Origin: a virus
Reading direction: 5' to 3' (one strand)
DNA length: 64,000 nt
UHGV virus genome: UHGV-0293664
The position numbers and the translations under genes were made by a program. Numbering within the stretch: the first letter of the stretch is position 1; every line of letters begins with the position of its first letter. Positions 29,290 to 63,281 of the stretch are shown one piece after another. The notes under the pieces were generated by a model. The model did not search any database. It was given only the letters and a program-made list of their open reading frames with translations, and was not told where the DNA came from.

Positions 29290-31357
29290 ATTTATGGCAT
29301 CTGCATACAACCGTTTCGGCGAGCCAAACCCGAAAGCAACTAAGTATAAAAGTGGGGGAAGTGTGAAACGAGACTATCGTGATGAAAAAGAAGTTGAAAC
29401 TGTAGAGACTGTTTTAGAAAATACTAAAATTGTCCCTGTCCCACAACAGAATATCGGTCTGATGGCTGCACAATATTTTGGTGTGCGATCAGCATTGTCC
29501 CAAGAAGACGGTGTGACAGTCACTGCAACATATTTCCCATATTACGACCGCTACGGAAATCTGTCCGGTTTCAAAAAGCGTGACTGGACTATTCCTAAAG
29601 AGCAAAGGGGCCATTTCTCCGTTGTTGGCATCGTAAAGGCCAACTCCCAGATGTTTGGTCAAAAGCTGTGTGCATCTTCCAACAACCGTAAGCAGATCAA
29701 CGTTTGTGAGGGAGAAGGTGATGTTATTGCAGCATGGCAGGCTGCATATCAGATACAAGTAAAAGGGATTCTCACCAATGCTAAAGCCCCGGCAAAGGTG
29801 AAGCAGTGGGCTAAAGAGGTCCAGGACGGGATCGATGCAGTTATCAACGGCGGTGATCTGGCAGGAAAACCCTGCCTGCCTTTTGTTGGAATTAACTGTG
29901 GATGTGCAAACGCAGTAGATACTTTTGCAAACAATGAGAAGTTTATCCGTAGCTATGGAACAGTTGTGCTGGCAATGGATAACGATGCAGCTAACGAGGT
30001 AGAGAAGCAAAAACACGTCATTAAAGGTGTTGAGGCCACGCACAATATCGCAGCATTTTTAATGGCTGATAACGTTTACCACGTAGAATACCCTGGTGAA
30101 GTAAACGACCCTGACGGTGTAAAAGATATCCGAGACATGCTGAAGGCTAAAAAGCTGGAAGATATTGTCAACATGTTCCGGCATCCTGTTAAATATGTGC
30201 CTGATGCTGTGTCGGATTTAGAAGACTTCTCTATCGAGTCTTTGCGGAAAAAGACTTCCAACGGGGTAGATATCAGTGCAGAGTTCCCAAAACTGCAAAA
30301 AATGCTAAAAGGCTTGCACAAAGGGACACTTGTAATGCTTACAGGTCCATCAGGCGGCGGTAAAACAACCGTGGCTAAAAAACTGGAACACTGTATTGCA
30401 AGATACCTAATGGACCCGACATGCCAGAAGGCTGATGACTATGAAGAGGATGATCGTCTATGTATGATCCATCTTGAGGAGGACCCAGAGGAAGCAATTA
30501 ACTCCTTGTATGCAAACCAGTTAGGGTTTGATGTTAAAGAGTTTGTTGAAGATCCTAGCCAGTTTTTAACTGATCAAGAACACGCAGAGATTCACCAATC
30601 ATGGGCAAAAGCTGGAAAAATCAAAGTGTTCAAACATTTCGGATCTATTCCGGTGGACGAGTTGATTACCAAGCTTAAGCAAATGGTTTGCCTGTACCAT
30701 TGCCGTTATATTGTGCTGGATCACCTGTCCATGGTAATTTCAGGGCTTAATGTTAAGGATGAGCGAAAAGAACTGGACATGGCTATGACTCAGCTGGCTG
30801 CGTTTTGTAAGCAGTTTAACGTGTTTATCTTGGTGATCGCTCACCTCAAACGTACAGAGATTGTGCCTCCTAAGGACAAGGATGGTAACCCGTTACCTTT
30901 CTGGTATCCTGTGCGAAAAGAGAATTTGCGAGGATCGGCGGGGCTTGAACAGTTGAGTTGGGTAGTCATAGGTGTCGAGGCCGAAGAAATGGTGGATCGT
31001 TCTCGTGGACGTGTCCGTCTGGTAGGTCTTAAAAACCGTCCAGCAAAAACTCTAGGTATTGCTGACACTTTGGTTATGGACCCGCACACAGGTAAGTTCC
31101 ATGATGCCAGTAATTGGTACTGGGACAAAGAAATGCAAATGTTTACAGACGGAGAAGGTGGGGAGGTTGTTTGGAGACCTCAGGCTATGTTTGAGGATCA
31201 GGAGCATGCAGTTGTAGAAACACCTATGGGCAAGGTTGTGGCTGATAAGGTTGTAACTCCTACTGTTAAGTCTGTTGACACGCAGGAAGACCTCCAGTAC
31301 GATGATCCATCCTCTGACCCGGTCCCCGGTTTTGAGGATGATGAAACGCCTTTTTAA
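29279..31357 (+). CDS. bifunctional DNA primase-helicase (TOPRIM primase + DnaB-like helicase)
   Basis: 692 aa; TOPRIM-like CEGEGD and MDNDAANE; Walker A TGPSGGGKTT. Confidence 0.9.
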   Translation: MGSKFMASAYNRFGEPNPKATKYKSGGSVKRDYRDEKEVETVETVLENTKIVPVPQQNIGLMAAQYFGVRSALSQEDGVTVTATYFPYYDRYGNLSGFKKRDWTIPKEQRGHFSVVGIVKANSQMFGQKLCASSNNRKQINVCEGEGDVIAAWQAAYQIQVKGILTNAKAPAKVKQWAKEVQDGIDAVINGGDLAGKPCLPFVGINCGCANAVDTFANNEKFIRSYGTVVLAMDNDAANEVEKQKHVIKGVEATHNIAAFLMADNVYHVEYPGEVNDPDGVKDIRDMLKAKKLEDIVNMFRHPVKYVPDAVSDLEDFSIESLRKKTSNGVDISAEFPKLQKMLKGLHKGTLVMLTGPSGGGKTTVAKKLEHCIARYLMDPTCQKADDYEEDDRLCMIHLEEDPEEAINSLYANQLGFDVKEFVEDPSQFLTDQEHAEIHQSWAKAGKIKVFKHFGSIPVDELITKLKQMVCLYHCRYIVLDHLSMVISGLNVKDERKELDMAMTQLAAFCKQFNVFILVIAHLKRTEIVPPKDKDGNPLPFWYPVRKENLRGSAGLEQLSWVVIGVEAEEMVDRSRGRVRLVGLKNRPAKTLGIADTLVMDPHTGKFHDASNWYWDKEMQMFTDGEGGEVVWRPQAMFEDQEHAVVETPMGKVVADKVVTPTVKSVDTQEDLQYDDPSSDPVPGFEDDETPF

Positions 31358-31415
31358 TGTTTAACAAAGAGTGGGAGGGGTAGTACAACCGCCTCCCCTT
31401 TAAGGAGAACACTTC

Positions 31416-32150
31416 ATGAACGAGTTCAGAGATCACTGTGTAGCCAATCACTTGTGGTCAGAGATATTGGAGTATGACGGTCAAAATCTTTTTTGGAAGA
31501 TAGACATTCTGGCAGGTAGCGGTGTAGGATATGTTAAAACTTCAGCAGGCTCTAGAGCTGACAAGGGGCAAGATGCTGATGGCAGGCCTGTGGTCAGTCT
31601 AGGAAAGCATTGCACTAAAGGTGCCCACGTCATAATTTGGGAAATGTTTAACGGTCCTGTACCGGAAGGGTATGAGGTTGACCACATCAAGGAGATAAGA
31701 GAAACAGGTGGTGTGGCTGATAACAGTATTCAAAATTTGCAACTGCTCGAGCCTACAGATAACAAAAAGAAAAGTTGCAAGATACCTCGTAGTAACAACA
31801 AGTCTGGTAGGGTCGGGGTGCACTATTCTGAAGAAAGAGAGGCATGGATAGCTCAAGGCACAGATTCTGCAGGTGAAAGAGTCTGGCTAGGCCAGTACAG
31901 AACTTTTGAAGAGGCAGAGTGGGCAAGAAAGTTCTTCGAAGATAATGGTTTTTCGCACAAGAGTGGAAGAGCCGTGCAGTATAATAACACCAGCGGTTGC
32001 TCAGGGGTGAATTGGGATAAAACCCATGAAAGATGGGTAGCCAGAATTTATGTAGATGGTAAAAGGAAATGCCTTGGGTATTTCAAGAACAGAGAAGATG
32101 CAATAGCTGCAAGAAAGAGTGCTGAGAAGAAACAGGAGGAGACAGTATGA
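31416..32150 (+). CDS. HNH homing endonuclease with AP2-like DNA-binding domains
   Basis: 244 aa; HNH core EVDHIKE...N..NLQLL; two AP2-like repeats (GVHYSEEREAWIAQ..., GVNWDKTHERWVARIYVDGKRKCLGYF). Confidence 0.85.
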   Translation: MNEFRDHCVANHLWSEILEYDGQNLFWKIDILAGSGVGYVKTSAGSRADKGQDADGRPVVSLGKHCTKGAHVIIWEMFNGPVPEGYEVDHIKEIRETGGVADNSIQNLQLLEPTDNKKKSCKIPRSNNKSGRVGVHYSEEREAWIAQGTDSAGERVWLGQYRTFEEAEWARKFFEDNGFSHKSGRAVQYNNTSGCSGVNWDKTHERWVARIYVDGKRKCLGYFKNREDAIAARKSAEKKQEETV

Positions 32151-34924
32151 GTAATTGGTGCTTCGACTTGGAGGCCTCCGGGCTTTTGGAAGACCCAGAT
32201 CTTTATTATCACTGCGGTCTGTTTAAAGAGCTGAATAAGAACCGTTTTATGCTGTTCCTTCCTCTAAATGACCGCACACACTACTCCGAGGAGGATATAG
32301 AGAAGGCTAAGAACTTTATTCTGGCAAAGAAAACTCTTTATAAAGATTTTGAAGTTCGCATAGCAGATTTTTCGGAGTTGGAAGGTTGGCTTACAGGCAA
32401 TTCCGACTGGTCACCAACAGCTTTGAACTGCCATAACTGCTACAGTTATGACTTTATGCTAATGGAAAGATTGTCCGGTATTCATTTTGATATGTTCCGT
32501 GATCCTAAATGCATGGGGACTATCAACGACCACCAGGTTAACCTGTTTGATACGTTGGCGATGAGCCGAATCTTGTGGCCTGATCGCCCTTTACCAAAAG
32601 GTTGTCCGGACTCTGTATTCAACCCGGTTACTAAGAAAATGCAGCCTGTTGGTCCTCACGGCCTTATGGCATGGGGCTACGCCCTTGGTAACCAGAAAGT
32701 TCAAATTGATGACTGGCGTGATCTTCCGTTGTGGAAGTATGTGGATCGTGTATTCGAGGACGTTATCATCCAAGAGCTGCTCTGGAAAGAGCTGGTAGCG
32801 GAATCAAAAGGTGTATTCTACGGCAAATCTGACATGCAGAACTTTATGTACGATCCTGCCAAAGAGAAGCCGAAAGGGTTCAAGAAGATCACCTGGAAGA
32901 ACGCATTACGCCGAGGCATGCTGCAGCACTTCCTGATGGAGCTGCAGGCCCGTCAGGGTGTGTATTTCGACATAGATGGAGCTATTGCTTTACGTGACCG
33001 TTGCGATGCGTGGATGAAAGAGATCGCTGATCGTGTTGAACCTCAACTTCCTTTAAAAGAGTTGTCAATGTCTCAGCGGCCCAAGTTCCCTGAAAAGCCG
33101 TTTAACCAAGATGGGACAATCTCCAATAATGGTTGGAAATGGTTAAAAGATAAGCTTGGCTATCCTGTGGACATGAGCGCTTTAGAGTTCAAAGCCCCGC
33201 CTAAGCGAGCATTTACCTCCACAGGGGATGTCAGTAAGATGGGGATAAAGTGGTGTGAAGAGATGGGCTGCAAAGACCCAGATAAGATGGCTGATTTCTT
33301 GAGAGGCTATATTAAGGGCACCTCCACACCACAACCTTTACCTAAAGAGCTAATGGATCAGGCAATAAGTGATCTACAGCAGAAGCGAATGCCGGACTGC
33401 AAGATACCTATGAAAATCAGCAATCAGGACGACATTAAGAGATACCTGATCAGTGCTGGTTGGCTTCCGACAATGTGGAGAACTAAGGATGTAACTAAAG
33501 ACAGCAAGAAGAAAGCTCTACCTGATGCAGATGTTGATGCACGAGTGTATGCATATATGGACGAGCTTTTAGAGTCAGAGTATTGTGACCTAATTATCAA
33601 CTTCTGGAACAAAACTGATGCTAAGTTCCAGACAACCGTGCACAAGTTCCGAAGCTTTCCTAACTCTGAAAGGATTAAAAAGGAAGTATTCGGGAAAATA
33701 CGTAGAAAAGCTAGGACACTTATTACTTCTCCGCAGCTGAAAGATACGTTTGGACACCTATGCCCGAATCTTGAAAAATTGAACGGGGAGATGGCTAAAG
33801 ATATCGTCTTGTGGTTATCATTGCGAAACCGCAGATCGGTCCTTGATCCAATCAAGGAGGATAAGGTTGATACTGGTCTTCTTAATCACCCACGTTTGAA
33901 GATTGACCATAAGCTTCCGGCTAAAAGCTCTGGATTAACAAACACTTCCAGACAGAAACACAGTATTTGTGCAAACATGCCTAAACCATCTCCTAAAGTG
34001 GTTATGGGTAAAGAGATGCGCAGTCTGTGGGGTGTTCCTCCAGGATACTTTGAGATCGGTATTGACGGGTCCAACTTAGAGCAGCTTATCGGGGCTTGGG
34101 GTGCCTTTGAGTTCGACAACGGCTTGTATTATGATGTTGTAAGTAACGGGGACGCACACCAAAACAATGCTGAGGCATATACAAAAGTAGCAGGCAGAGA
34201 GGTGTCTCGTAACGACGGTAAACCTATCACGTATGGGGTTATGTATGGGGCACAAAAAGACAAAGTTGCAGACATGCTGGATATCTCCCCAGAGTTGGGA
34301 CAAAGGGTAATCGATGCACTTTGGGATGCCAACCCCGGTCTTAAGGGGCGTAAAGAAGATCTGGAGAAATTCTGGGAAGCAACGGGTAAGAAGTTTATCT
34401 ACTCTTTTGATGGTCATGCTATCTGGACCCGATCTAAACACTCTTTACTTAATGCATACCAACAGAATGGTGGTGCATCGTTGTGTGACTTAGTTGGGAT
34501 ACTCATGCACCACCAAATGGTGAAGCGCGGGTGGTACGATGAAGGTGTTCGTCGTATTATTTATTACCATGACGAATATCAGCTTCAAGTCCCTGACACA
34601 CCTAAGTATAAGACTGTGTACACCTTCGACACAATTGAAGAACTGGAAGCATTTAAGGCAGAGCAGGAGGCCAAACTTCATGTGTTCGACGGTCATAAGT
34701 ACAAAAAGGCACGCAAGGATGAGGACGGAAACGAAGTGGTTGACAGAGACGGAAACACGGTGTACGATCCTATCCTGAACGATGACGGAAAGCTTGAACT
34801 TATCTGGAGCCCTGTGGGTGAAATGGTGGTGCATTGCTTCTGGCAAGCTTCTAAAATGATGGGAGTCCCGTTCCAGATCACAGGTGAATACTTGTGCGGT
34901 CGTAATTGGGGTGATTGTCACTAA
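32147..34924 (+). CDS. DNA polymerase, family A, with 3'-5' exonuclease domain
   Basis: 925 aa; exo I-like FDLEASG; motif A-like IDGSNLEQL; O-helix-like KPITYGVMYG; motif C YYHDEYQL. Confidence 0.9.
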   Translation: MSNWCFDLEASGLLEDPDLYYHCGLFKELNKNRFMLFLPLNDRTHYSEEDIEKAKNFILAKKTLYKDFEVRIADFSELEGWLTGNSDWSPTALNCHNCYSYDFMLMERLSGIHFDMFRDPKCMGTINDHQVNLFDTLAMSRILWPDRPLPKGCPDSVFNPVTKKMQPVGPHGLMAWGYALGNQKVQIDDWRDLPLWKYVDRVFEDVIIQELLWKELVAESKGVFYGKSDMQNFMYDPAKEKPKGFKKITWKNALRRGMLQHFLMELQARQGVYFDIDGAIALRDRCDAWMKEIADRVEPQLPLKELSMSQRPKFPEKPFNQDGTISNNGWKWLKDKLGYPVDMSALEFKAPPKRAFTSTGDVSKMGIKWCEEMGCKDPDKMADFLRGYIKGTSTPQPLPKELMDQAISDLQQKRMPDCKIPMKISNQDDIKRYLISAGWLPTMWRTKDVTKDSKKKALPDADVDARVYAYMDELLESEYCDLIINFWNKTDAKFQTTVHKFRSFPNSERIKKEVFGKIRRKARTLITSPQLKDTFGHLCPNLEKLNGEMAKDIVLWLSLRNRRSVLDPIKEDKVDTGLLNHPRLKIDHKLPAKSSGLTNTSRQKHSICANMPKPSPKVVMGKEMRSLWGVPPGYFEIGIDGSNLEQLIGAWGAFEFDNGLYYDVVSNGDAHQNNAEAYTKVAGREVSRNDGKPITYGVMYGAQKDKVADMLDISPELGQRVIDALWDANPGLKGRKEDLEKFWEATGKKFIYSFDGHAIWTRSKHSLLNAYQQNGGASLCDLVGILMHHQMVKRGWYDEGVRRIIYYHDEYQLQVPDTPKYKTVYTFDTIEELEAFKAEQEAKLHVFDGHKYKKARKDEDGNEVVDRDGNTVYDPILNDDGKLELIWSPVGEMVVHCFWQASKMMGVPFQITGEYLCGRNWGDCH

Positions 34925-34973
34925 TGTAAACTATCAACACATGGAAGTGTTGTTGAGCAAAGAGGAGACTTTT

Positions 34974-35258
34974 ATGGTAGTAGAACCAACAAAAACATTT
35001 ACATCCATGACTATTCCTGTTATTATGCAGGTGGAGTGTGTTCAGGTATCTCAAGTGTGGCCTGGCACCAAAATCCCGACAGGGCCTGATTTCTTTCAGG
35101 TTGGCAAAGTGTACAATGTCTGGAAGGCACCAGATTGTTACCCTTTCATCAAAGATGACCGTGGGATGCTGTGGTATCTTGGAAATGATTTGACACTGCA
35201 CCTTGGGAATGCTATTATTGCAGTATTCAGACTTAACAAGAAGGAGACTGATCAATGA
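34974..35258 (+). CDS. small hypothetical protein (paralog triad member)
   Basis: ATG 34974 after AGAGGAG; VYNVW...IKDDRGMLWYLGND similar to next two genes. Confidence 0.6.
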   Translation: MVVEPTKTFTSMTIPVIMQVECVQVSQVWPGTKIPTGPDFFQVGKVYNVWKAPDCYPFIKDDRGMLWYLGNDLTLHLGNAIIAVFRLNKKETDQ

Positions 35259-53638: not shown

Positions 53639-53656
53639 TTTCTTAACTGAATTATC

Positions 53657-53685
53657 AAGGGGCTTAAAGGCCCCTTTCTTTTTGT
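53657..53685 (+). terminator. intrinsic terminator closing the plus-strand early block
   Basis: AAGGGGC-TTAAA-GCCCCTT then TCTTTTTG. Confidence 0.8.
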
Positions 53686-56201
53686 CTGCTCTTCTCCTAC
53701 CATAAACGGCCCTACCTGGCAAGTGGAATAATTGACTAGCCATCAATCCCACACACTGTACAAATATACATGGAAAATAACTATTGCATAATTTTTCATT
53801 GTGTGGTAGCAAGTCCATTTTTACCCGTTTTCTCTCCCAAAATTGCACGTAATGCCGCTATTGCACAAATTTTAACCTGATGCACATCTCCAATATCTTG
53901 TCAACAACTAAAAATCTTTATAAGTCATACACTTACACAGCATCGAAAGCGTGTTCTACGCGAAAAATCGAGTATAACTATAGCCGCCAGATCTCAGAAT
54001 TCACGTACGCACACCATTCTATAGTCCGCTAAGTATTTATTCCAACCACAGAATAACGGAATAGTCAATACCTGTACAAAATAATTATTCGTATAAACTG
54101 CATAACATAAACCTGTCCAGGTGTCAACATTTTTCGTAAACAGTCTGAAATTGTCACGATAGGTTACTATAATCAGAGAAATCTTTAGTCGTCTAATGTT
54201 TACTGCACATAACTATACTGACTGGAATCATTAGATGACTAATAGAAAGATAAGAAATAGTTAACAATGTAATTGTTTTACCTGTAACAATAAGGCAACT
54301 ATGCAAACGAATGTCATGGCGCGACGGAGTCGCGACATAATATAAAAGCAGTAACCATCACCCCCGTGATAGTTTGTCTGCAAACTATTAATCAGATCAT
54401 AGTTGCCTTGTATTTAGTTAATCATGACATAACAAGCAAGGCAACTATAGATCTGCTAATAGTTGCCCTGCTTTTATATTATGTCATATATTATTAACCT
54501 GTTAATTGTCAGCTTGTTGGATGTTAGCTTGTCAATTATTAACTTGCTAATTGTTTTCATGCAAACGAATGTCATGGCTGATTATTTCTATGTAAATGGT
54601 TTGTTCGTAAACAGTTTATTCGGGAACAGTTTATTCGGGAACAGTGAGGCATGCAATAGTAACAATTGTTATTGTATCCAGTGTGTTGAGTATGCCCAGT
54701 GTGTCCAGTATGTCAGACAAGTTTTTCCTCTCTTTGTCAAGTGCCGCATTAAAAATTTACAAACTGGTATGGTAGCATTTTTGCGGCCCTGTTTACATTC
54801 AGCAGTGTATGTATAACCCTTGTTGTGTGGGCGTTTAGACGTCTAGACGGTTGGAAGTCTACAGGTCAATATCTAATCTATTGGCTGCTAACTATATCCC
54901 ACACAAATAGTAAGAAATATGATTGTTATATGCGTAAACTGTAACTCATGTTATCAATCCCTGTATGTATCGCCAGTGGTTCGCATAATGGGTATTATGT
55001 TAAATTGCCAGTAATGATAACGATTCTCACAATGATAGGTATTCTCATTCATCCACACAAAATAGTTTGCAAATGTTGTGCCACTGTGTGAACGGCCTGG
55101 CCTATTAATTTCTCTCACTGCCTCGATATTTGAGAATTGTTATAAGAATGAGAAGTATTCCCATTCCGTCCGCCTGGCAGCGCTCCTGTAGGTCCTGCAA
55201 GGACTCTAGCTGAAAGCTAGACCCTTCGGGCCTCCCTGTAGGTCAGGTCAAAATCGTGGTAGAATTGGGCCTGTTCAGATATTTCTGGCTGACTCTTCAG
55301 GTCTGTGTGGGAAAAGCCAACCTCTCCGGCGGGGCAGGGGGTCATGACGGTAAAATTGCAGGTCAATTAAAAAATTTACGTGGTGTATGAAGCGCTCTTC
55401 AGGTAAGGCAGGTATTATGGGATGAAACCCTCTTCAGGCAATGATATTTGTGGGTGTGATATTTGCTGGAAAGCCAGATATGACGGGACTCCCGGCGGGG
55501 CAGGGGTAGTACAGACAGGGGAAATATGGGGGATGTGGTTGGGGAAATTGATCAGGCAGGAAGAGTATGGAATATGTTACAGATATGTTAAATATGAAGG
55601 TAGGATATTTGTAGGATTTGTGTGTAAAATCAAAGACTTAAGTGGTGTTGTGGTATTTTCTATAAATAATTCAAGTTTAATAGGCAATATTTGTCTCTAT
55701 CCGCTTTGTGTGGTAAACAGATTCAGATGAGATTGGTTTACAGGTGTATACATAATATACAAATTAAAGATACAAGAAACCCCCCTCCCCCTTCGGCTAC
55801 CATTCACCTTTTCCTCTGACTGGTACTTAAACACTTATTCAGACTCTTCAGGTTATCACCCATATATCATATGGCAGTGACTGGTGTCCTCCGGCCCCTC
55901 TTTCGTCACCCGTCCGCTTCGCCATGCTAATGCCATAGCCAAATGTTCGGTTGTTCACCCTGTTCACTCAGGTGTATCTCCATACCCCTTCAAACCGAAG
56001 AGAACAGAAAACCCGAATTACTCGGTAAAAGAAAAGAGAAGAACTTAATTTTATCAGGATAGGCAAGAATGTCAAGGCATGACTGCTCACTAAACAAGCA
56101 AACAGTCATGTGTGGGAGGTAAGTGATTGTGGTGGTAGGAAATTTAGTTGAAAGATGTGTTATAGGTGCTCCAGCACTTTATCCAGGCAGCTAATTGTGT
56201 G
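53686..56201. other. 2.5-kb non-coding, AT-rich, repeat- and palindrome-rich region at convergence of plus and minus transcription
   Basis: No convincing ORF; direct repeats, large inverted repeats and tetraloop hairpins (see findings). Confidence 0.7.
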
Positions 56202-60191: not shown

Positions 60192-60587
60192 TTACTGAAA
60201 CAGTGCAGATAAATTACCTTCTGGTGGGAACTTATCTGCCAGGAATGGGGTTAGAACAGTGGCCTTCTGAAGATCAGGGGTCCACTCATTGTTCAGAACA
60301 TCCCAGTAGTACGCAATGTTGCTGTGTGGGTGCCGCATTACGAACTTTTTCCCTTCGTAGTCGGTTGAAACCTCTACAGAAGAAATAACAACAGAATCTT
60401 CGAGGGTTTCTTCATAGAAAGATCCGCCCTCAAATTTCCAACGAGATGCAAGAGCTCCTGCCTTGAACGCTGCAGATAACGGACTATCTGCAAGAACATA
60501 CATTTCTTGCACTCTATCACTGCGATCTTTGCTTCTTACGTTGTATACAGTATCCGAGCTATACTCAACACGGTATAGACTTACCAT
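60192..60587 (-). CDS. hypothetical protein, family C
   Basis: 131 aa; RHPHSNIAYYWD...WTPD paralogous to 62396-62794. Confidence 0.75.
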   Translation of the reverse strand: MVSLYRVEYSSDTVYNVRSKDRSDRVQEMYVLADSPLSAAFKAGALASRWKFEGGSFYEETLEDSVVISSVEVSTDYEGKKFVMRHPHSNIAYYWDVLNNEWTPDLQKATVLTPFLADKFPPEGNLSALFQ

Positions 60588-60923: not shown

Positions 60924-61187
60924 TTACCCCACAACCATAGCTTCAAAAGGTGTCATAAACGAATAAACAGCATCATCATCTGCTTCAGGGAATGCCCCCA
61001 AAGACTTTATGTCTGATCCCTTGACAAATACAAGGTTTTGATCAAAAGCTTCTTGTGGATCAATCCGATACATATCTCGTAGGATACCACTTACCTCCTC
61101 ATCAAGAGGCGAGTATGCTGTGCACGTTTTTCCAATCAAGCTTTGAGAATCAGGGTATCCACCTGAAGTTTTAAAATAAACAATCAT
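60924..61187 (-). CDS. small protein, family A
   Basis: 87 aa; KGSDIKSLGAFPEADDDAVYSF resembles GSDLIAAGAPE...YYAF. Confidence 0.75.
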   Translation of the reverse strand: MIVYFKTSGGYPDSQSLIGKTCTAYSPLDEEVSGILRDMYRIDPQEAFDQNLVFVKGSDIKSLGAFPEADDDAVYSFMTPFEAMVVG

Positions 61188-61279: not shown

Positions 61280-61549
61280 TTACTCTTCTACAACCTCATA
61301 CACATCCGGAGTTACAATCAACTCCTCTCCATTACCTGGAGCAACAAACACTACCAAACCTTCCGGTGTGTGCTTTTTAGCCATCTCTATGACATCTTCT
61401 CGCAGAGCCGGCTCCATCAGATCAAAACCTTCACCCAGGGCATCACGAACCACCTTCATGTAGTCAACTGGTTGTGCTTCAACGATCATGCCTTCAACCA
61501 GTCCACAGTTTTTGTCTGCCAGCTCAGTTTGGAATAATTTAATTTTCAT
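61280..61549 (-). CDS. small acidic protein, family B
   Basis: 89 aa; MKIKL...VFVAPGNGEELIVTPDVYEVVEE. Confidence 0.75.
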   Translation of the reverse strand: MKIKLFQTELADKNCGLVEGMIVEAQPVDYMKVVRDALGEGFDLMEPALREDVIEMAKKHTPEGLVVFVAPGNGEELIVTPDVYEVVEE

Positions 61550-61692
61550 TTAGAGGTCTCCTCAATTATTTGATATTAATAGCCGTAACCTAACACATTA
61601 ACTACAACTGCGATTGCAAACATAATTTCAAAGCATGCAATCTCTACATTTGGGACTAATTTTTTAATCATGCCTATTGTAGCACCTTAATC

Positions 61693-62004
61693 TCAAAAGT
61701 CAATCTTTACTTTACCTTTTCCCTTACCTTTCTTTCCACCGCATTTAGCCAACTGGCGTGCTGCAACATCTACCATACGGTCAGTTGCCTCGTAAGCATC
61801 ACTACCTTTAGCTTTGGCGATAACTTCTTTCCCAGAATTGTCAAAAATGAAAGCCATAACTTCCTGGTGATCATTTTCAACTTTTACACTCACACGTGCA
61901 TAGTTGGCAGAGGGGTGCAAACGCTCCAGCTTGGACATTTTGTTGGAAATGAAAGACACCATACCTTCAGTGATCTCCACGTTGCCAGTAATTTCAATTT
62001 GCAT
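61693..62004 (-). CDS. hpf: ribosome hibernation promoting factor / RaiA (YfiA) family protein
   Basis: 103 aa; MQIEITGNVEITEGM...KLERLHP...VSVKVEND...KAKGSDAYEATDRMVDVAARQLAK aligns end to end with bacterial HPF pattern; extra Lys/Gly-rich tail. Confidence 0.8.
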   Translation of the reverse strand: MQIEITGNVEITEGMVSFISNKMSKLERLHPSANYARVSVKVENDHQEVMAFIFDNSGKEVIAKAKGSDAYEATDRMVDVAARQLAKCGGKKGKGKGKVKIDF

Positions 62005-62087
62005 AATGTGTTCCTTTTAAAGAAGAGGGAACCAAACCCTCTTTGAAAACAATGATACTAAATCTGAAGCGTTGTGTCAACAGTTTT

Positions 62088-62395: not shown

Positions 62396-62794
62396 TCAGT
62401 TTAGCTTTTCTTCAACAACCCCATAGCTCGGGGCAGAGTCAAGAGCTTTTTGGTTTAAAAGTGGTGTAGCAGAATCTGCAAACGGTGTCCAAGTTTTTGT
62501 TCTGGCATTCCAATAATGTTTCACTCTGGAATCTGGATGCACTATAACAAAAACTTTTTCACTTGTCAACACATTAATTTCTTCCACACCCCTGCTGATA
62601 ATTTCTCCGTCATAGCCACCAGTCTGGTATCCTTCGTACCAGGTTCTTGCATAGGCATAGCCAGCCTGCCAGCATGCAGCCTCTTCAGAGGTGGAGACTA
62701 CGTAGAAGTCTTTCTCAAATTCTGGGATACGCCCTTGCTTTACGCTCCAAGCTCCGCGAATTTTCATTGTAACTTTGAACAGTTTATTTTTCAC
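62396..62794 (-). CDS. hypothetical protein, family C
   Basis: 132 aa; VHPDSRVKHYWNARTKTWTPF. Confidence 0.75.
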   Translation of the reverse strand: MKNKLFKVTMKIRGAWSVKQGRIPEFEKDFYVVSTSEEAACWQAGYAYARTWYEGYQTGGYDGEIISRGVEEINVLTSEKVFVIVHPDSRVKHYWNARTKTWTPFADSATPLLNQKALDSAPSYGVVEEKLN

Positions 62795-62806: not shown

Positions 62807-63064
62807 TCACAGCTCTAAAATATCTGCATCTGATCCTACCCCAAAGGCATAATACGATTCCTCTCCGAAATAATATTCTGGGGCACCAGCCGCAATCAGG
62901 TCTGATCCTAAGATGAACACCACATTGTGGCCTACATATCCGCGAAAATTTTGCCGCACAGGATCATCCCACGGCAACCCTTCAAAGTATACAGCAGGTA
63001 CGACCTTTCCTTTCAGGAAGGATTGTCCCAAGTAGACGTTAGAGTCAAGAATTTTAACCTTCAT
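62807..63064 (-). CDS. small protein, family A
   Basis: 85 aa; MKVKILDSNVYLGQ...GSDLIAAGAPE. Confidence 0.75.
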   Translation of the reverse strand: MKVKILDSNVYLGQSFLKGKVVPAVYFEGLPWDDPVRQNFRGYVGHNVVFILGSDLIAAGAPEYYFGEESYYAFGVGSDADILEL

Positions 63065-63281
63065 GATCGTCCTCCACTATCTCCACATCCTCCCCTAGGG
63101 CAAAGTTGTAGGTCCACTGACTGTCAAAGCATTCCTGGGATGCACCAGCGGCAATAAGATCTGCACCTTTTATTTTTAAAAGGTCAGGATAATCTTCGTT
63201 AGGGATAGCGGTAAACACTTTCCCCACTAAGGGCTCCTGACCAATATAGAAGCTTGAATCTAAAACTTTAACTTTCATCAA
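63054..63281 (-). CDS. small protein, family A
   Basis: 75 aa; MMKVKVLDSSFYIGQ...GADLIAAGASQE. Confidence 0.7.
   Translation of the reverse strand: MMKVKVLDSSFYIGQEPLVGKVFTAIPNEDYPDLLKIKGADLIAAGASQECFDSQWTYNFALGEDVEIVEDDHEG

What the first reader, a model, noticed from the sequence alone, without database searches (positions are those of the whole stretch)
61693..62004. Phage-encoded ribosome hibernation factor (HPF/RaiA family) homolog
The 103-aa minus-strand ORF aligns over its whole length with the bacterial HPF/YfiA family (MQIEITGNVEITEGM... versus the E. coli-type MQLNITG..VEITEAL.. start, plus conserved KLE, VKVE and ARQL segments). It adds a Lys/Gly-rich tail (KCGGKKGKGKGKVKIDF) that I do not recall in bacterial HPFs. 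It sits in a block of small acidic proteins, suggesting a host-translation takeover role. A phage copy could silence or protect host ribosomes during infection.
Basis: partly seen in the sequence, partly recalled or inferred. Interest (0 to 1): 0.72.

Follow-up and report, generated by a model that had tools for sequence, protein, structure and literature searches.

The report
Known phage copy of ribosome hibernation factor
The 103-residue gene is a real, selectively maintained phage copy of the bacterial ribosome hibernation factor HPF. It is the already annotated and published gene gp139 of rV5-like coliphages, whose role in infection is still unknown.

Summary
The ORF at 61693..62004 (-) exists exactly as described. 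It belongs to the HPF/YfiA (Ribosomal_S30AE) family: Pfam E=1.1e-12, above the Pfam and TIGR00741 cut-offs. The best solved relative is E. coli HPF. [quoted passage not shown]

The window is an rV5-like Vequintavirus, and the gene is rV5 gp139/ORF144. It has been annotated since 2008 and is present in 119 phage records. Mizuno et al. 2019 (PMC6375957) described it and expressed it in E. coli. It did not co-purify with salt-washed ribosomes and did not change 100S levels.

New here:
- It is under strong purifying selection (dN/dS 0.02) and is kept at the same position in relatives only 56-64% identical.
- About half of the residues conserved in enterobacterial HPFs are changed. The ribosome contacts K80, T53, H55 and H62 are lost; R83, K87 and K91 are kept.
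- The disordered Lys/Gly tail is conserved only in its proximal part.
- The published negative result is not diagnostic, because host HPF was also missing from those ribosome preparations.

Verdict: correct identification, already known, mechanism unresolved, low interest.

The parts
61693..62004 (-). CDS of 103 aa plus stop: phage HPF homolog, the equivalent of rV5 gp139/ORF144 (S30AE domain, residues 1-89)
   Evidence: ORF list and sequence. Pfam PF02482 E=1.1e-12 and TIGR00741 above its cut-off. PDB phmmer best hit is E. coli HPF. AF2 models have pLDDT 85.7 and 84.2, with Foldseek TM 0.80-0.84 and rmsd 1.0-1.2 A to HPF chains 4hei and 6h4n_x. 99% identical to rV5 YP_002003641.
61696..61743 (-). 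Region coding for the C-terminal tail (residues 88-103, CGGKKGKGKGKVKIDF). It is Lys/Gly-rich and predicted disordered, and it is encoded by an A/G-rich low-complexity run.
   Evidence: pLDDT is below 50 for residues 91-103 in both models. Residues 89-103 carry net charge +5, against +1 for the last six residues of E. coli HPF. Natural variants differ in the distal part: APECc02 ...KCGRKKGKGERQSKD, Murica ...KCGGKKGKGKAK, YN3 lacks KV, rV5 adds GE. Divergent relatives keep the length and the basic charge but not the sequence.
62052..62080 (-). Sigma-70-type promoter TTGACA-17 nt-TATCAT directly upstream of the gene
   Evidence: Promoter scan gives 11 of 12 matches. It coincides with promoter P144 annotated in rV5. 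TTGACA is retained in the 64%-identical relative L003 but not in L006. The scan's total count in the region is not above the shuffled expectation, so this is a consensus match, not proof of function.
62024..62042 (-). 5'-UTR hairpin AGAGGG-TTTGGTT-CCCTCT between the promoter and the Shine-Dalgarno sequence (AAGGA at 62012-62016)
   Evidence: Read from the sequence and folded. The fold of the 71-nt stretch holding this hairpin (61990-62060) is not more stable than shuffles (z = -0.70). The hairpin is absent from the divergent relatives L003 and L006. It is probably incidental or specific to the rV5 type.

Best explanation
This is a host-derived short HPF gene (S30AE family) that a Vequintavirinae ancestor captured from an enterobacterium. 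It has been kept under selection ever since. It is transcribed by host RNA polymerase from its own sigma-70 promoter inside the block of small genes typical of phage early regions.

The most likely mechanism is as follows. The folded domain binds the decoding-site and mRNA channel of vacant E. coli 30S/70S ribosomes, which is the site used by HPF and RaiA. Binding would use the retained alpha2 basic track (R83, K87, K91), D75, K25 and a re-made basic beta-sheet face (R28, R37, K59, K64, K66). The disordered Lys/Gly tail is 8-10 residues longer than that of HPF. It would run on towards the mRNA channel and the RMF site, as the RaiA tail does.

The expected effect is reversible, salt-labile occupation of idle ribosomes. 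That would compete with host RaiA and with HPF-RMF, and it would keep ribosomes as intact 70S rather than 100S during infection.

Shown: family membership, fold, purifying selection, synteny, the promoter motif, and the pattern of kept and lost contact residues.
Inferred: the early timing of expression, ribosome binding, the path of the tail, and the physiological effect.
For: Family and fold.

Closer to HPF than to RaiA: NF007780 56.3 bits against NF007654 18.3 bits; phmmer E about 5e-12 for E. coli HPF against 0.17 for YfiA.

Selection:
- Window against rV5 shows 13 synonymous and 1 non-synonymous differences, dN/dS 0.018.
- 117 of 119 phage records are at least 95% identical at protein level.
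- Relatives 64% and 56% identical sit at the syntenic position in more distant phage contigs. pN is 0.23-0.25 while pS is saturated at about 0.8.

Contact residues (positions from preprint 10.1101/2025.10.07.680626):
- Kept: R83 (contacts m4C1402), K87, K91, D75, K26-equivalent, E44-equivalent, N57-equivalent.
- 18 clade-specific substitutions are fixed in all three phage lineages. They include new lysines and an arginine on the beta-sheet face (R37, K59, K66), so the surface has been remodelled but is still under constraint. K64 and R28 are likewise invariant among the phage sequences.

Published data, re-read:
- Host RaiA is present in salt-washed ribosomes from cells expressing viral bS21 or bL12. 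It is absent from ribosomes of cells expressing the rV5 protein, although it is present in their crude extract. Competition for one site would give this result.
- Host HPF and RMF are absent from all three ribosome preparations, so the absence of the viral protein is not informative.
- The lack of any 100S increase fits a RaiA-like action rather than a dimer-promoting one.
- The RaiA tail heads towards the RMF site.
Against: The only direct experiment found no viral HPF peptides in 70S or 100S fractions, although the protein was present in the extract.

Several residues that contact 16S rRNA in enterobacterial HPF are replaced by non-equivalent ones: K80->V, T53->F, H55->F, H62->I, Y30->L, R33->S. 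The conserved R17->V change is a further loss. K80 is one of only four ribosome-contacting residues identical between E. coli HPF and YfiA.

Only 32 of 61 columns conserved at 90% or more in Enterobacterales HPFs are kept. The protein scores far below the HPF equivalog cut-off (56 against 125 bits).

The RaiA-displacement reading rests on single qualitative mass-spectrometry lists with low counts (one peptide in one of the two control-like samples).

No expression-timing data were found.
Confidence: 0.55

Rival explanations
1. Exapted HPF fold. [quoted passage not shown] It would bind another ligand, for example phage or host RNA, or a nucleotide immune signal as the Acb4 anti-CBASS sponges do.
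For: Loss of K80, T53, H55, H62, R33 and R17, and 29 of 61 conserved columns changed. A long branch: 38-46% identity to bacterial HPFs that are 67-99% identical to each other. No co-purification with ribosomes and no 100S effect. The SPO1 Acb4 sponge is structurally similar to V. cholerae HPF 4HEI, which shows that phages do re-use this kind of fold.
Against: Full-length sequence homology to HPF with R83, K87, K91 and D75 retained. The top 35 PDB structural matches are all ribosome-bound or free S30AE proteins, and no Acb4 chain appears among the first 50. The new substitutions add basic residues on the rRNA-facing sheet rather than removing charge. The published negative result is non-diagnostic.
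Confidence: 0.22
2. Canonical hibernation promoter. [quoted passage not shown] This is the first reader's 'silence host ribosomes' option.
For: Closest sequence and structural relatives are short HPFs that act in 100S formation. Host RMF is available and is induced in dormancy responses to phage.
Against: Expression in E. coli had no discernible effect on 100S particles. The tail is 8-10 residues longer than that of HPF and is strongly basic, and a longer tail (as in RaiA) points towards the RMF site. The window encodes no RMF homolog. Indiscriminate hibernation would also block phage translation.
Confidence: 0.15
3. Neutral passenger. The gene is a recently captured host gene, drifting and without function in the phage.
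For: No phenotype is known. The distal tail is polymorphic through indels and frameshifts.
Against: dN/dS of 0.018 within rV5-like phages. Presence in 119 records. Retention at the syntenic position after divergence to 56-64% identity, with 18 fixed clade-specific substitutions. Own promoter and Shine-Dalgarno sequence.
Confidence: 0.03

Closest known systems
rV5 gp139 / ORF144 (YP_002003641, ABI79209), the 'HPF' of rV5-like Vequintavirus phages studied by Mizuno et al. 2019 (PMC6375957)
   Same: Same gene. The proteins are 99% identical (one N21H difference and a stop two codons earlier). Position, promoter and neighbours are the same.
   Different: The window allele ends ...KIDF (103 aa) and rV5 ends ...KIDFGE (105 aa), owing to a G-to-T change that creates TGA.
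E. coli / Enterobacterales short HPF (YhbH; NF007780; PDB 2rql, 6h4n, 6y69)
   Same: Same family and fold. Alignable over residues 1-89 at 41-45% identity. R83, K87, K91, D75 and the K26-equivalent are retained. No C-terminal dimerisation domain.
   Different: - Scores 56 bits against the 125-bit equivalog cut-off.
- One-residue deletion in the beta1-alpha1 loop and a one-residue insertion (K59) in the beta3-beta4 loop.
- Contacts K80, T53, H55, H62, Y30 and R33 replaced.
- Tail 8-10 residues longer and Lys/Gly-rich instead of KHKDKLKQH.
- Lies in a phage gene block under its own sigma-70 promoter instead of the rpoN operon.
- No effect on 100S when expressed.
E. coli RaiA / YfiA / protein Y (NF007654; PDB 4v8i, 1n3g)
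   Same: Same fold and presumably the same binding site. Like RaiA, it has a C-terminal extension beyond the HPF length. Like RaiA, it does not raise 100S levels.
   Different: Sequence similarity is weak (18 bits; phmmer E=0.17). Its tail is shorter than the RaiA tail (RaiA is 113 aa) and basic, whereas the RaiA tail ends acidic. The RaiA sequence used for that comparison is from memory.
HPF-family proteins of other large phages (Cronobacter phage GAP32, Escherichia phage PBECO4, Xanthomonas phage XaC1; phrog_8990)
   Same: Phage-borne S30AE proteins in large myoviruses. They are structurally similar (TM 0.64-0.76).
   Different: Only 15-34% identical and placed in a different PHROG (phrog_8990, whereas the rV5 type is phrog_12469). 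These are independent acquisitions according to Mizuno et al..

Membership tests
Ribosomal_S30AE / HPF-YfiA family (PF02482, TIGR00741) | Significant profile match above the curated thresholds over the whole domain | tested here: met
   PF02482: 49 bits against 23.7, residues 3-88 of the protein and positions 1-83 of the 88-position profile. TIGR00741: 46.3 bits against 40.9.
Ribosomal_S30AE / HPF-YfiA family (PF02482, TIGR00741) | [quoted passage not shown] | tested here: met
   AF2 elements: E2-7, H13-29, E33-43, E46-55, E60-67, H70-89. pLDDT is 85.7 with the mixed alignment and 84.2 with the phage-only alignment. Foldseek gives TM 0.80-0.84 and rmsd 1.0-1.2 A to 4hei and 6h4n_x. The structure is predicted, not solved.
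Ribosomal_S30AE / HPF-YfiA family (PF02482, TIGR00741) | Basic track on helix alpha2 shared by HPF and YfiA (K80, R83, K87, K91) that contacts 16S rRNA | tested here: inconclusive
   R83, K87 and K91 are kept. K80 is V in the window and T or I in the divergent phage relatives.
Ribosomal_S30AE / HPF-YfiA family (PF02482, TIGR00741) | Binds the 30S decoding site of vacant ribosomes | not testable with these tools
   The published test was negative after a 500 mM NH4Cl wash. Host HPF and RMF were equally absent from those preparations, so the test is not diagnostic.
Short HPF equivalog (NF007780, gammaproteobacterial YhbH) | Score at or above the equivalog cut-off | tested here: not met
   56.3 bits against a 125-bit cut-off.
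Short HPF equivalog (NF007780, gammaproteobacterial YhbH) | About 95 aa with the short conserved KHKDKLKQH C-terminus | tested here: not met
   103 aa ending KCGGKKGKGKGKVKIDF. All 35 bacterial sequences in A2 carry the short tail.
Short HPF equivalog (NF007780, gammaproteobacterial YhbH) | Promotes or stabilises 100S dimers together with RMF | not testable with these tools
   Published: no discernible effect on 100S on expression in E. coli NM522. No RMF homolog in the window.
RaiA / YfiA equivalog (NF007654) | Score at or above the equivalog cut-off | tested here: not met
   18.3 bits against a 158-bit cut-off. phmmer E=0.17 to YfiA chains.
RaiA / YfiA equivalog (NF007654) | Long C-terminal tail that reaches the RMF site and prevents 100S formation | tested here: inconclusive
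   The tail is longer than that of HPF by 8-10 residues, disordered and basic. Its path on the ribosome cannot be computed here.
Long HPF (Firmicutes-type, with C-terminal dimerisation domain) | C-terminal dimerisation domain after a linker, giving a protein of about 180-190 aa | tested here: not met
   The protein is 103 aa, and only the N-terminal S30AE domain is matched.
Acb4 anti-CBASS sponge family | Sequence or close structural similarity to SPO1 Acb4 | tested here: not met
   No Acb4 chain appears among the first 50 PDB Foldseek matches or among the phmmer PDB hits at E up to 10. Caveat: I did not verify that an Acb4 entry is in the PDB copy. The fold resemblance between Acb4 and HPF is reported.

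The most novel reading that the evidence does not exclude
The phage protein is an anti-hibernation factor rather than a hibernation factor. It would occupy the HPF/RaiA site only weakly and reversibly, while its Lys/Gly tail blocks the RMF site. That would evict RaiA and prevent RMF-HPF 100S formation. Ribosomes of starved, stationary-phase or defence-arrested (dormant) cells would then stay immediately available for phage mRNAs. The disappearance of host RaiA from ribosomes of cells expressing the rV5 protein, seen in the published supplementary mass-spectrometry lists, would be the first trace of this.
Probability: 0.2. Interest if true: 0.6.

Novelty: already known. Interest (0 to 1): 0.22.

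Why it matters
As an identification it adds nothing new. The gene has been annotated in rV5 since 2008 and was the subject of a published experiment in 2019.

What remains open is why a strictly lytic coliphage lineage keeps a remodelled hibernation factor under strong selection. If the protein competes with RaiA and with HPF-RMF, it would be a viral handle on ribosome dormancy. That bears on how phages infect non-growing or defence-arrested bacteria.

The first is the pattern of kept and lost contact residues. The second is that only the proximal part of the tail is conserved. The third is that the published negative result is non-diagnostic.

Tried and rejected
- **Homolog searches.** The word-indexed search with the single protein returned only 6 close relatives. 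The exhaustive phmmer search of representatives gave 23 hits, all S30AE proteins, with only one closer than 50% identity. A profile that included E. coli HPF was needed to collect bacterial relatives.
- **5'-UTR hairpin as a regulatory element.** Rejected. The 71-nt stretch that holds it is no more stable than shuffles (z = -0.70), and the hairpin is absent from the divergent relatives.
- **Neighbourhood as evidence of function.** None of the ten neighbours matches Pfam, and all fall in PHROGs of unknown function. The 'translation takeover block' is unsupported.
- **A second HPF gene.** Several GenBank records label the downstream 89-aa gene 'sigma 54 modulation factor'. It has no S30AE match, so this is an annotation error.
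- **RMF partner in the window.** None found.
- **Rfam and tRNA scans of the window.** Nothing found.
- **Literature.** Searches for Vequintavirus plus hibernation and for rV5 plus sigma 54 modulation returned nothing. No paper later than 2020 on this gene's function was found.
- **Acb4-like sponge.** Considered because of the reported fold resemblance. Kept only as a low-probability rival, because all the strong structural and sequence matches are ribosome factors.

Full report
**Observation**

An AAGGA ribosome-binding site lies 7 nt upstream. A near-consensus sigma-70 promoter, TTGACA-17-TATCAT, lies at 62080..62052. The neighbours are indeed small and acidic. Twelve of the 13 minus-strand genes between 58888 and 63278 have pI 4.05-5.69, and this protein (pI 9.04) is the only basic one.

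**Identity of the protein**

- Pfam Ribosomal_S30AE matches residues 3-88 at E=1.1e-12 (49 bits, cut-off 23.7).
- TIGR00741 (HPF/YfiA family) is passed, 46.3 against 40.9 bits.
- The HPF equivalog model scores 56 bits, below its 125-bit cut-off. The RaiA equivalog scores only 18 bits.
- Among solved structures the best sequence matches are E. coli HPF chains (E about 5e-12, residues 1-89). YfiA chains are at E about 0.2.
[quoted passage not shown] Its best PDB matches are V. cholerae HPF (TM 0.84/0.94, rmsd 1.0 A) and E. coli HPF in the 100S ribosome (6h4n_x, rmsd 1.0 A). The top 35 hits are all S30AE proteins.
- That alignment was mostly bacterial HPFs, so I repeated the prediction with six phage sequences only. 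The fold (pLDDT 84.2) and the hit list were the same.

**Identity of the locus**

The window is an rV5-like Vequintavirus. A 3-kb stretch around the gene is 97% identical to phages NHEP1 and S127 BCL3. The gene is rV5 gp139/ORF144. tblastn finds the gene in 119 phage records, 117 of them at 95% protein identity or more. The annotations vary: sigma 54 modulation factor, RaiA, ribosome hibernation factor, or hypothetical.

**Literature**

Mizuno et al. 2019 (PMC6375957) list exactly this protein (ABI79209) among virus-encoded ribosomal proteins and place it among gammaproteobacterial HPFs. They expressed it from pBAD24 in E. coli NM522. It was detected in crude extract but not in 70S or 100S fractions, and 100S levels did not change. 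They proposed that viral HPF might compete with the host factor to prevent dimerisation. Mathieu et al. 2020 (PMC6969025) mention the gene again. I found no later functional work. The finding is therefore a correct rediscovery.

**New result 1: selection and age**

Against rV5, the window allele has 13 synonymous and 1 non-synonymous differences (dN/dS 0.018). Two divergent relatives, 64% and 56% identical, occur on uncultured phage contigs of up to 125-137 kb. They sit at the same position in the same series of small genes. Synonymous sites are saturated there, while pN is about 0.25. The gene is an old, vertically kept component of this phage lineage and not a recent pick-up.

**New result 2: divergence from the host factor**

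Thirty-five Enterobacterales HPFs are 67-99% identical to each other. The phage proteins are only 31-46% identical to them. Of the 61 columns conserved at 90% or more in the bacteria, 32 are kept and 29 are changed.

I used the ribosome contacts listed for E. hormaechei, P. aeruginosa and E. coli HPF in preprint 10.1101/2025.10.07.680626.
- Kept: R83 (contacts m4C1402), K87, K91, D75, and the equivalents of K26, E44 and N57.
- Replaced: K80->V, T53->F, H55->F, H62->I, Y30->L, R33->S. The conserved R17 is also replaced, by V.
- Eighteen substitutions are fixed in all three phage lineages. They include new basic residues on the sheet (R37, K59 as an insertion, K66). K64 and R28 are also invariant among the phage sequences.

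The rRNA-facing surface has thus been rebuilt and then held constant. This is what one expects of a protein that still binds something specific, but perhaps not in the same way as host HPF.

**New result 3: the tail**

The tail is predicted disordered, and residues 89-103 carry a net charge of +5. It is encoded by an A/G-rich run that is polymorphic in nature. APECc02 ends ...KCGRKKGKGERQSKD, Murica ends ...KCGGKKGKGKAK, YN3 lacks two residues, and rV5 has two more than the window. The divergent relatives keep a basic tail of similar length but a different sequence. Only the proximal K87-C-G-x-K-K-G-K-G segment is constant within the rV5 type. RaiA differs from HPF by a longer tail that runs towards the RMF site. 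An intermediate-length basic tail could therefore interfere with RMF, but this is inference.

**New result 4: the published negative result re-read**

The ribosomes were pelleted through 500 mM NH4Cl from cells harvested at OD600 of about 1. The supplementary protein lists show the following.
- Host RaiA is found in the ribosome preparations from cells expressing viral bS21 (one peptide) and viral bL12 (two peptides, six spectra).
- Host HPF and RMF are in none of the three ribosome preparations. All three host factors are present in the crude extract of the cells expressing viral HPF.
- The ribosome list from the cells expressing viral HPF (71 proteins, read in full) lacks RaiA as well.

Two conclusions follow. 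First, the procedure does not retain even host HPF, so the absence of the viral protein says little. Second, RaiA is missing only where the viral protein was expressed, which is what competition for the shared site would produce. These are single qualitative lists with low counts, so this is a lead and not a result.

**Mechanism**

My best explanation (confidence about 0.55) has these elements.
- The protein is probably made early, from its own sigma-70 promoter.
- It occupies the HPF/RaiA site of idle host ribosomes in a salt-labile way.
- Its tail extends towards the mRNA channel and the RMF site.
- It competes with host hibernation factors and holds ribosomes as 70S.

Rivals:
- An exapted fold with a non-ribosomal ligand (0.22). 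Support comes from the lost contacts and from the precedent of the Acb4 sponge, whose fold resembles HPF. Against it, all strong matches are ribosome factors.
- A canonical promoter of 100S formation that silences translation (0.15). The published gradient profiles and the longer tail argue against it.
- A neutral passenger (0.03). The selection data argue against it.

**Context**

None of the ten neighbouring proteins has a Pfam match, and all belong to PHROGs of unknown function. The neighbourhood therefore gives no functional evidence beyond resembling a phage early region with several sigma-70-like promoters. The window encodes no RMF homolog and no second S30AE gene.

**Verdict**

The gene is already known. 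The remaining interest lies in the unresolved function and in the remodelled binding surface and tail.

Noticed in passing
window 61280-61549 (-): The 89-aa gene just downstream of hpf is labelled 'sigma 54 modulation factor' in several GenBank records (e.g. S127 BCL3, APECc02, ECP26). In APECc02 the true HPF gene is labelled 'hypothetical protein'. The 89-aa protein has no S30AE or any other Pfam match and belongs to phrog_11868 (unknown function). This looks like an off-by-one annotation error that has been propagated.
   Followed up: yes
window ~53640-56200: A stretch of about 2.5 kb without convincing ORFs, where the plus-strand and minus-strand gene blocks converge. GC falls to 0.34-0.37 around 53.8-54.8 kb. 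It is dense in direct and inverted repeats, e.g. a 20-nt exact repeat at 54301 and 54559 and 18-nt perfect inverted arms at 54334 and 54468. It is 92-95% conserved and left unannotated in rV5-like phages (rV5 104013-106618, MaxTheCat 90051-92584), and at least one record ends inside it. No Rfam or tRNA hit. It may be an origin of replication, a genome terminus or a non-coding RNA region.
   Followed up: partly
window 31416-32150 (+), abutting 32147-34924 (+): A 244-aa HNH_3 plus AP2-domain homing-endonuclease gene overlaps by 4 nt the start of the family-A DNA polymerase ORF. Only 80 of 121 related records cover 80% or more of a 3.7-kb query spanning this gene and the DNA polymerase ORF (31300-35000). 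Some relatives carry two HNH genes here, or a polymerase annotated in two pieces. This looks like a mobile-element hotspot.
   Followed up: partly
window 60192-60587 and 62396-62794; 62807-63064, 63054-63281, 60924-61187 (all -): The block of small genes contains paralogous families that flank the hpf gene. Two 131/132-aa proteins belong to phrog_7379 (32% identical, E=1.6e-9). Two adjacent 75/85-aa proteins belong to phrog_5009 (39% identical), with a weaker third member. Functions are unknown.
   Followed up: partly
window 61576-61671 (-): A 31-aa hydrophobic ORF (MIKKLVPNVEIACFEIMFAIAVVVNVLGYGY; rV5 gp140; phrog_15151) lies directly after hpf. A promoter-like site overlaps the hpf 3' end (61703..61676). 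It is present in rV5-type phages but absent from the divergent relatives L003 and L006.
   Followed up: partly
phage collection records MG0656xx (e.g. MG065661, MG065672, MG065682): Eighteen or nineteen unannotated records named 'Campylobacter phage', with host given as C. jejuni, are 93-97% identical to this E. coli rV5-like lineage across every region searched. This suggests mislabelled or contaminating coliphages in that data set.
   Followed up: no
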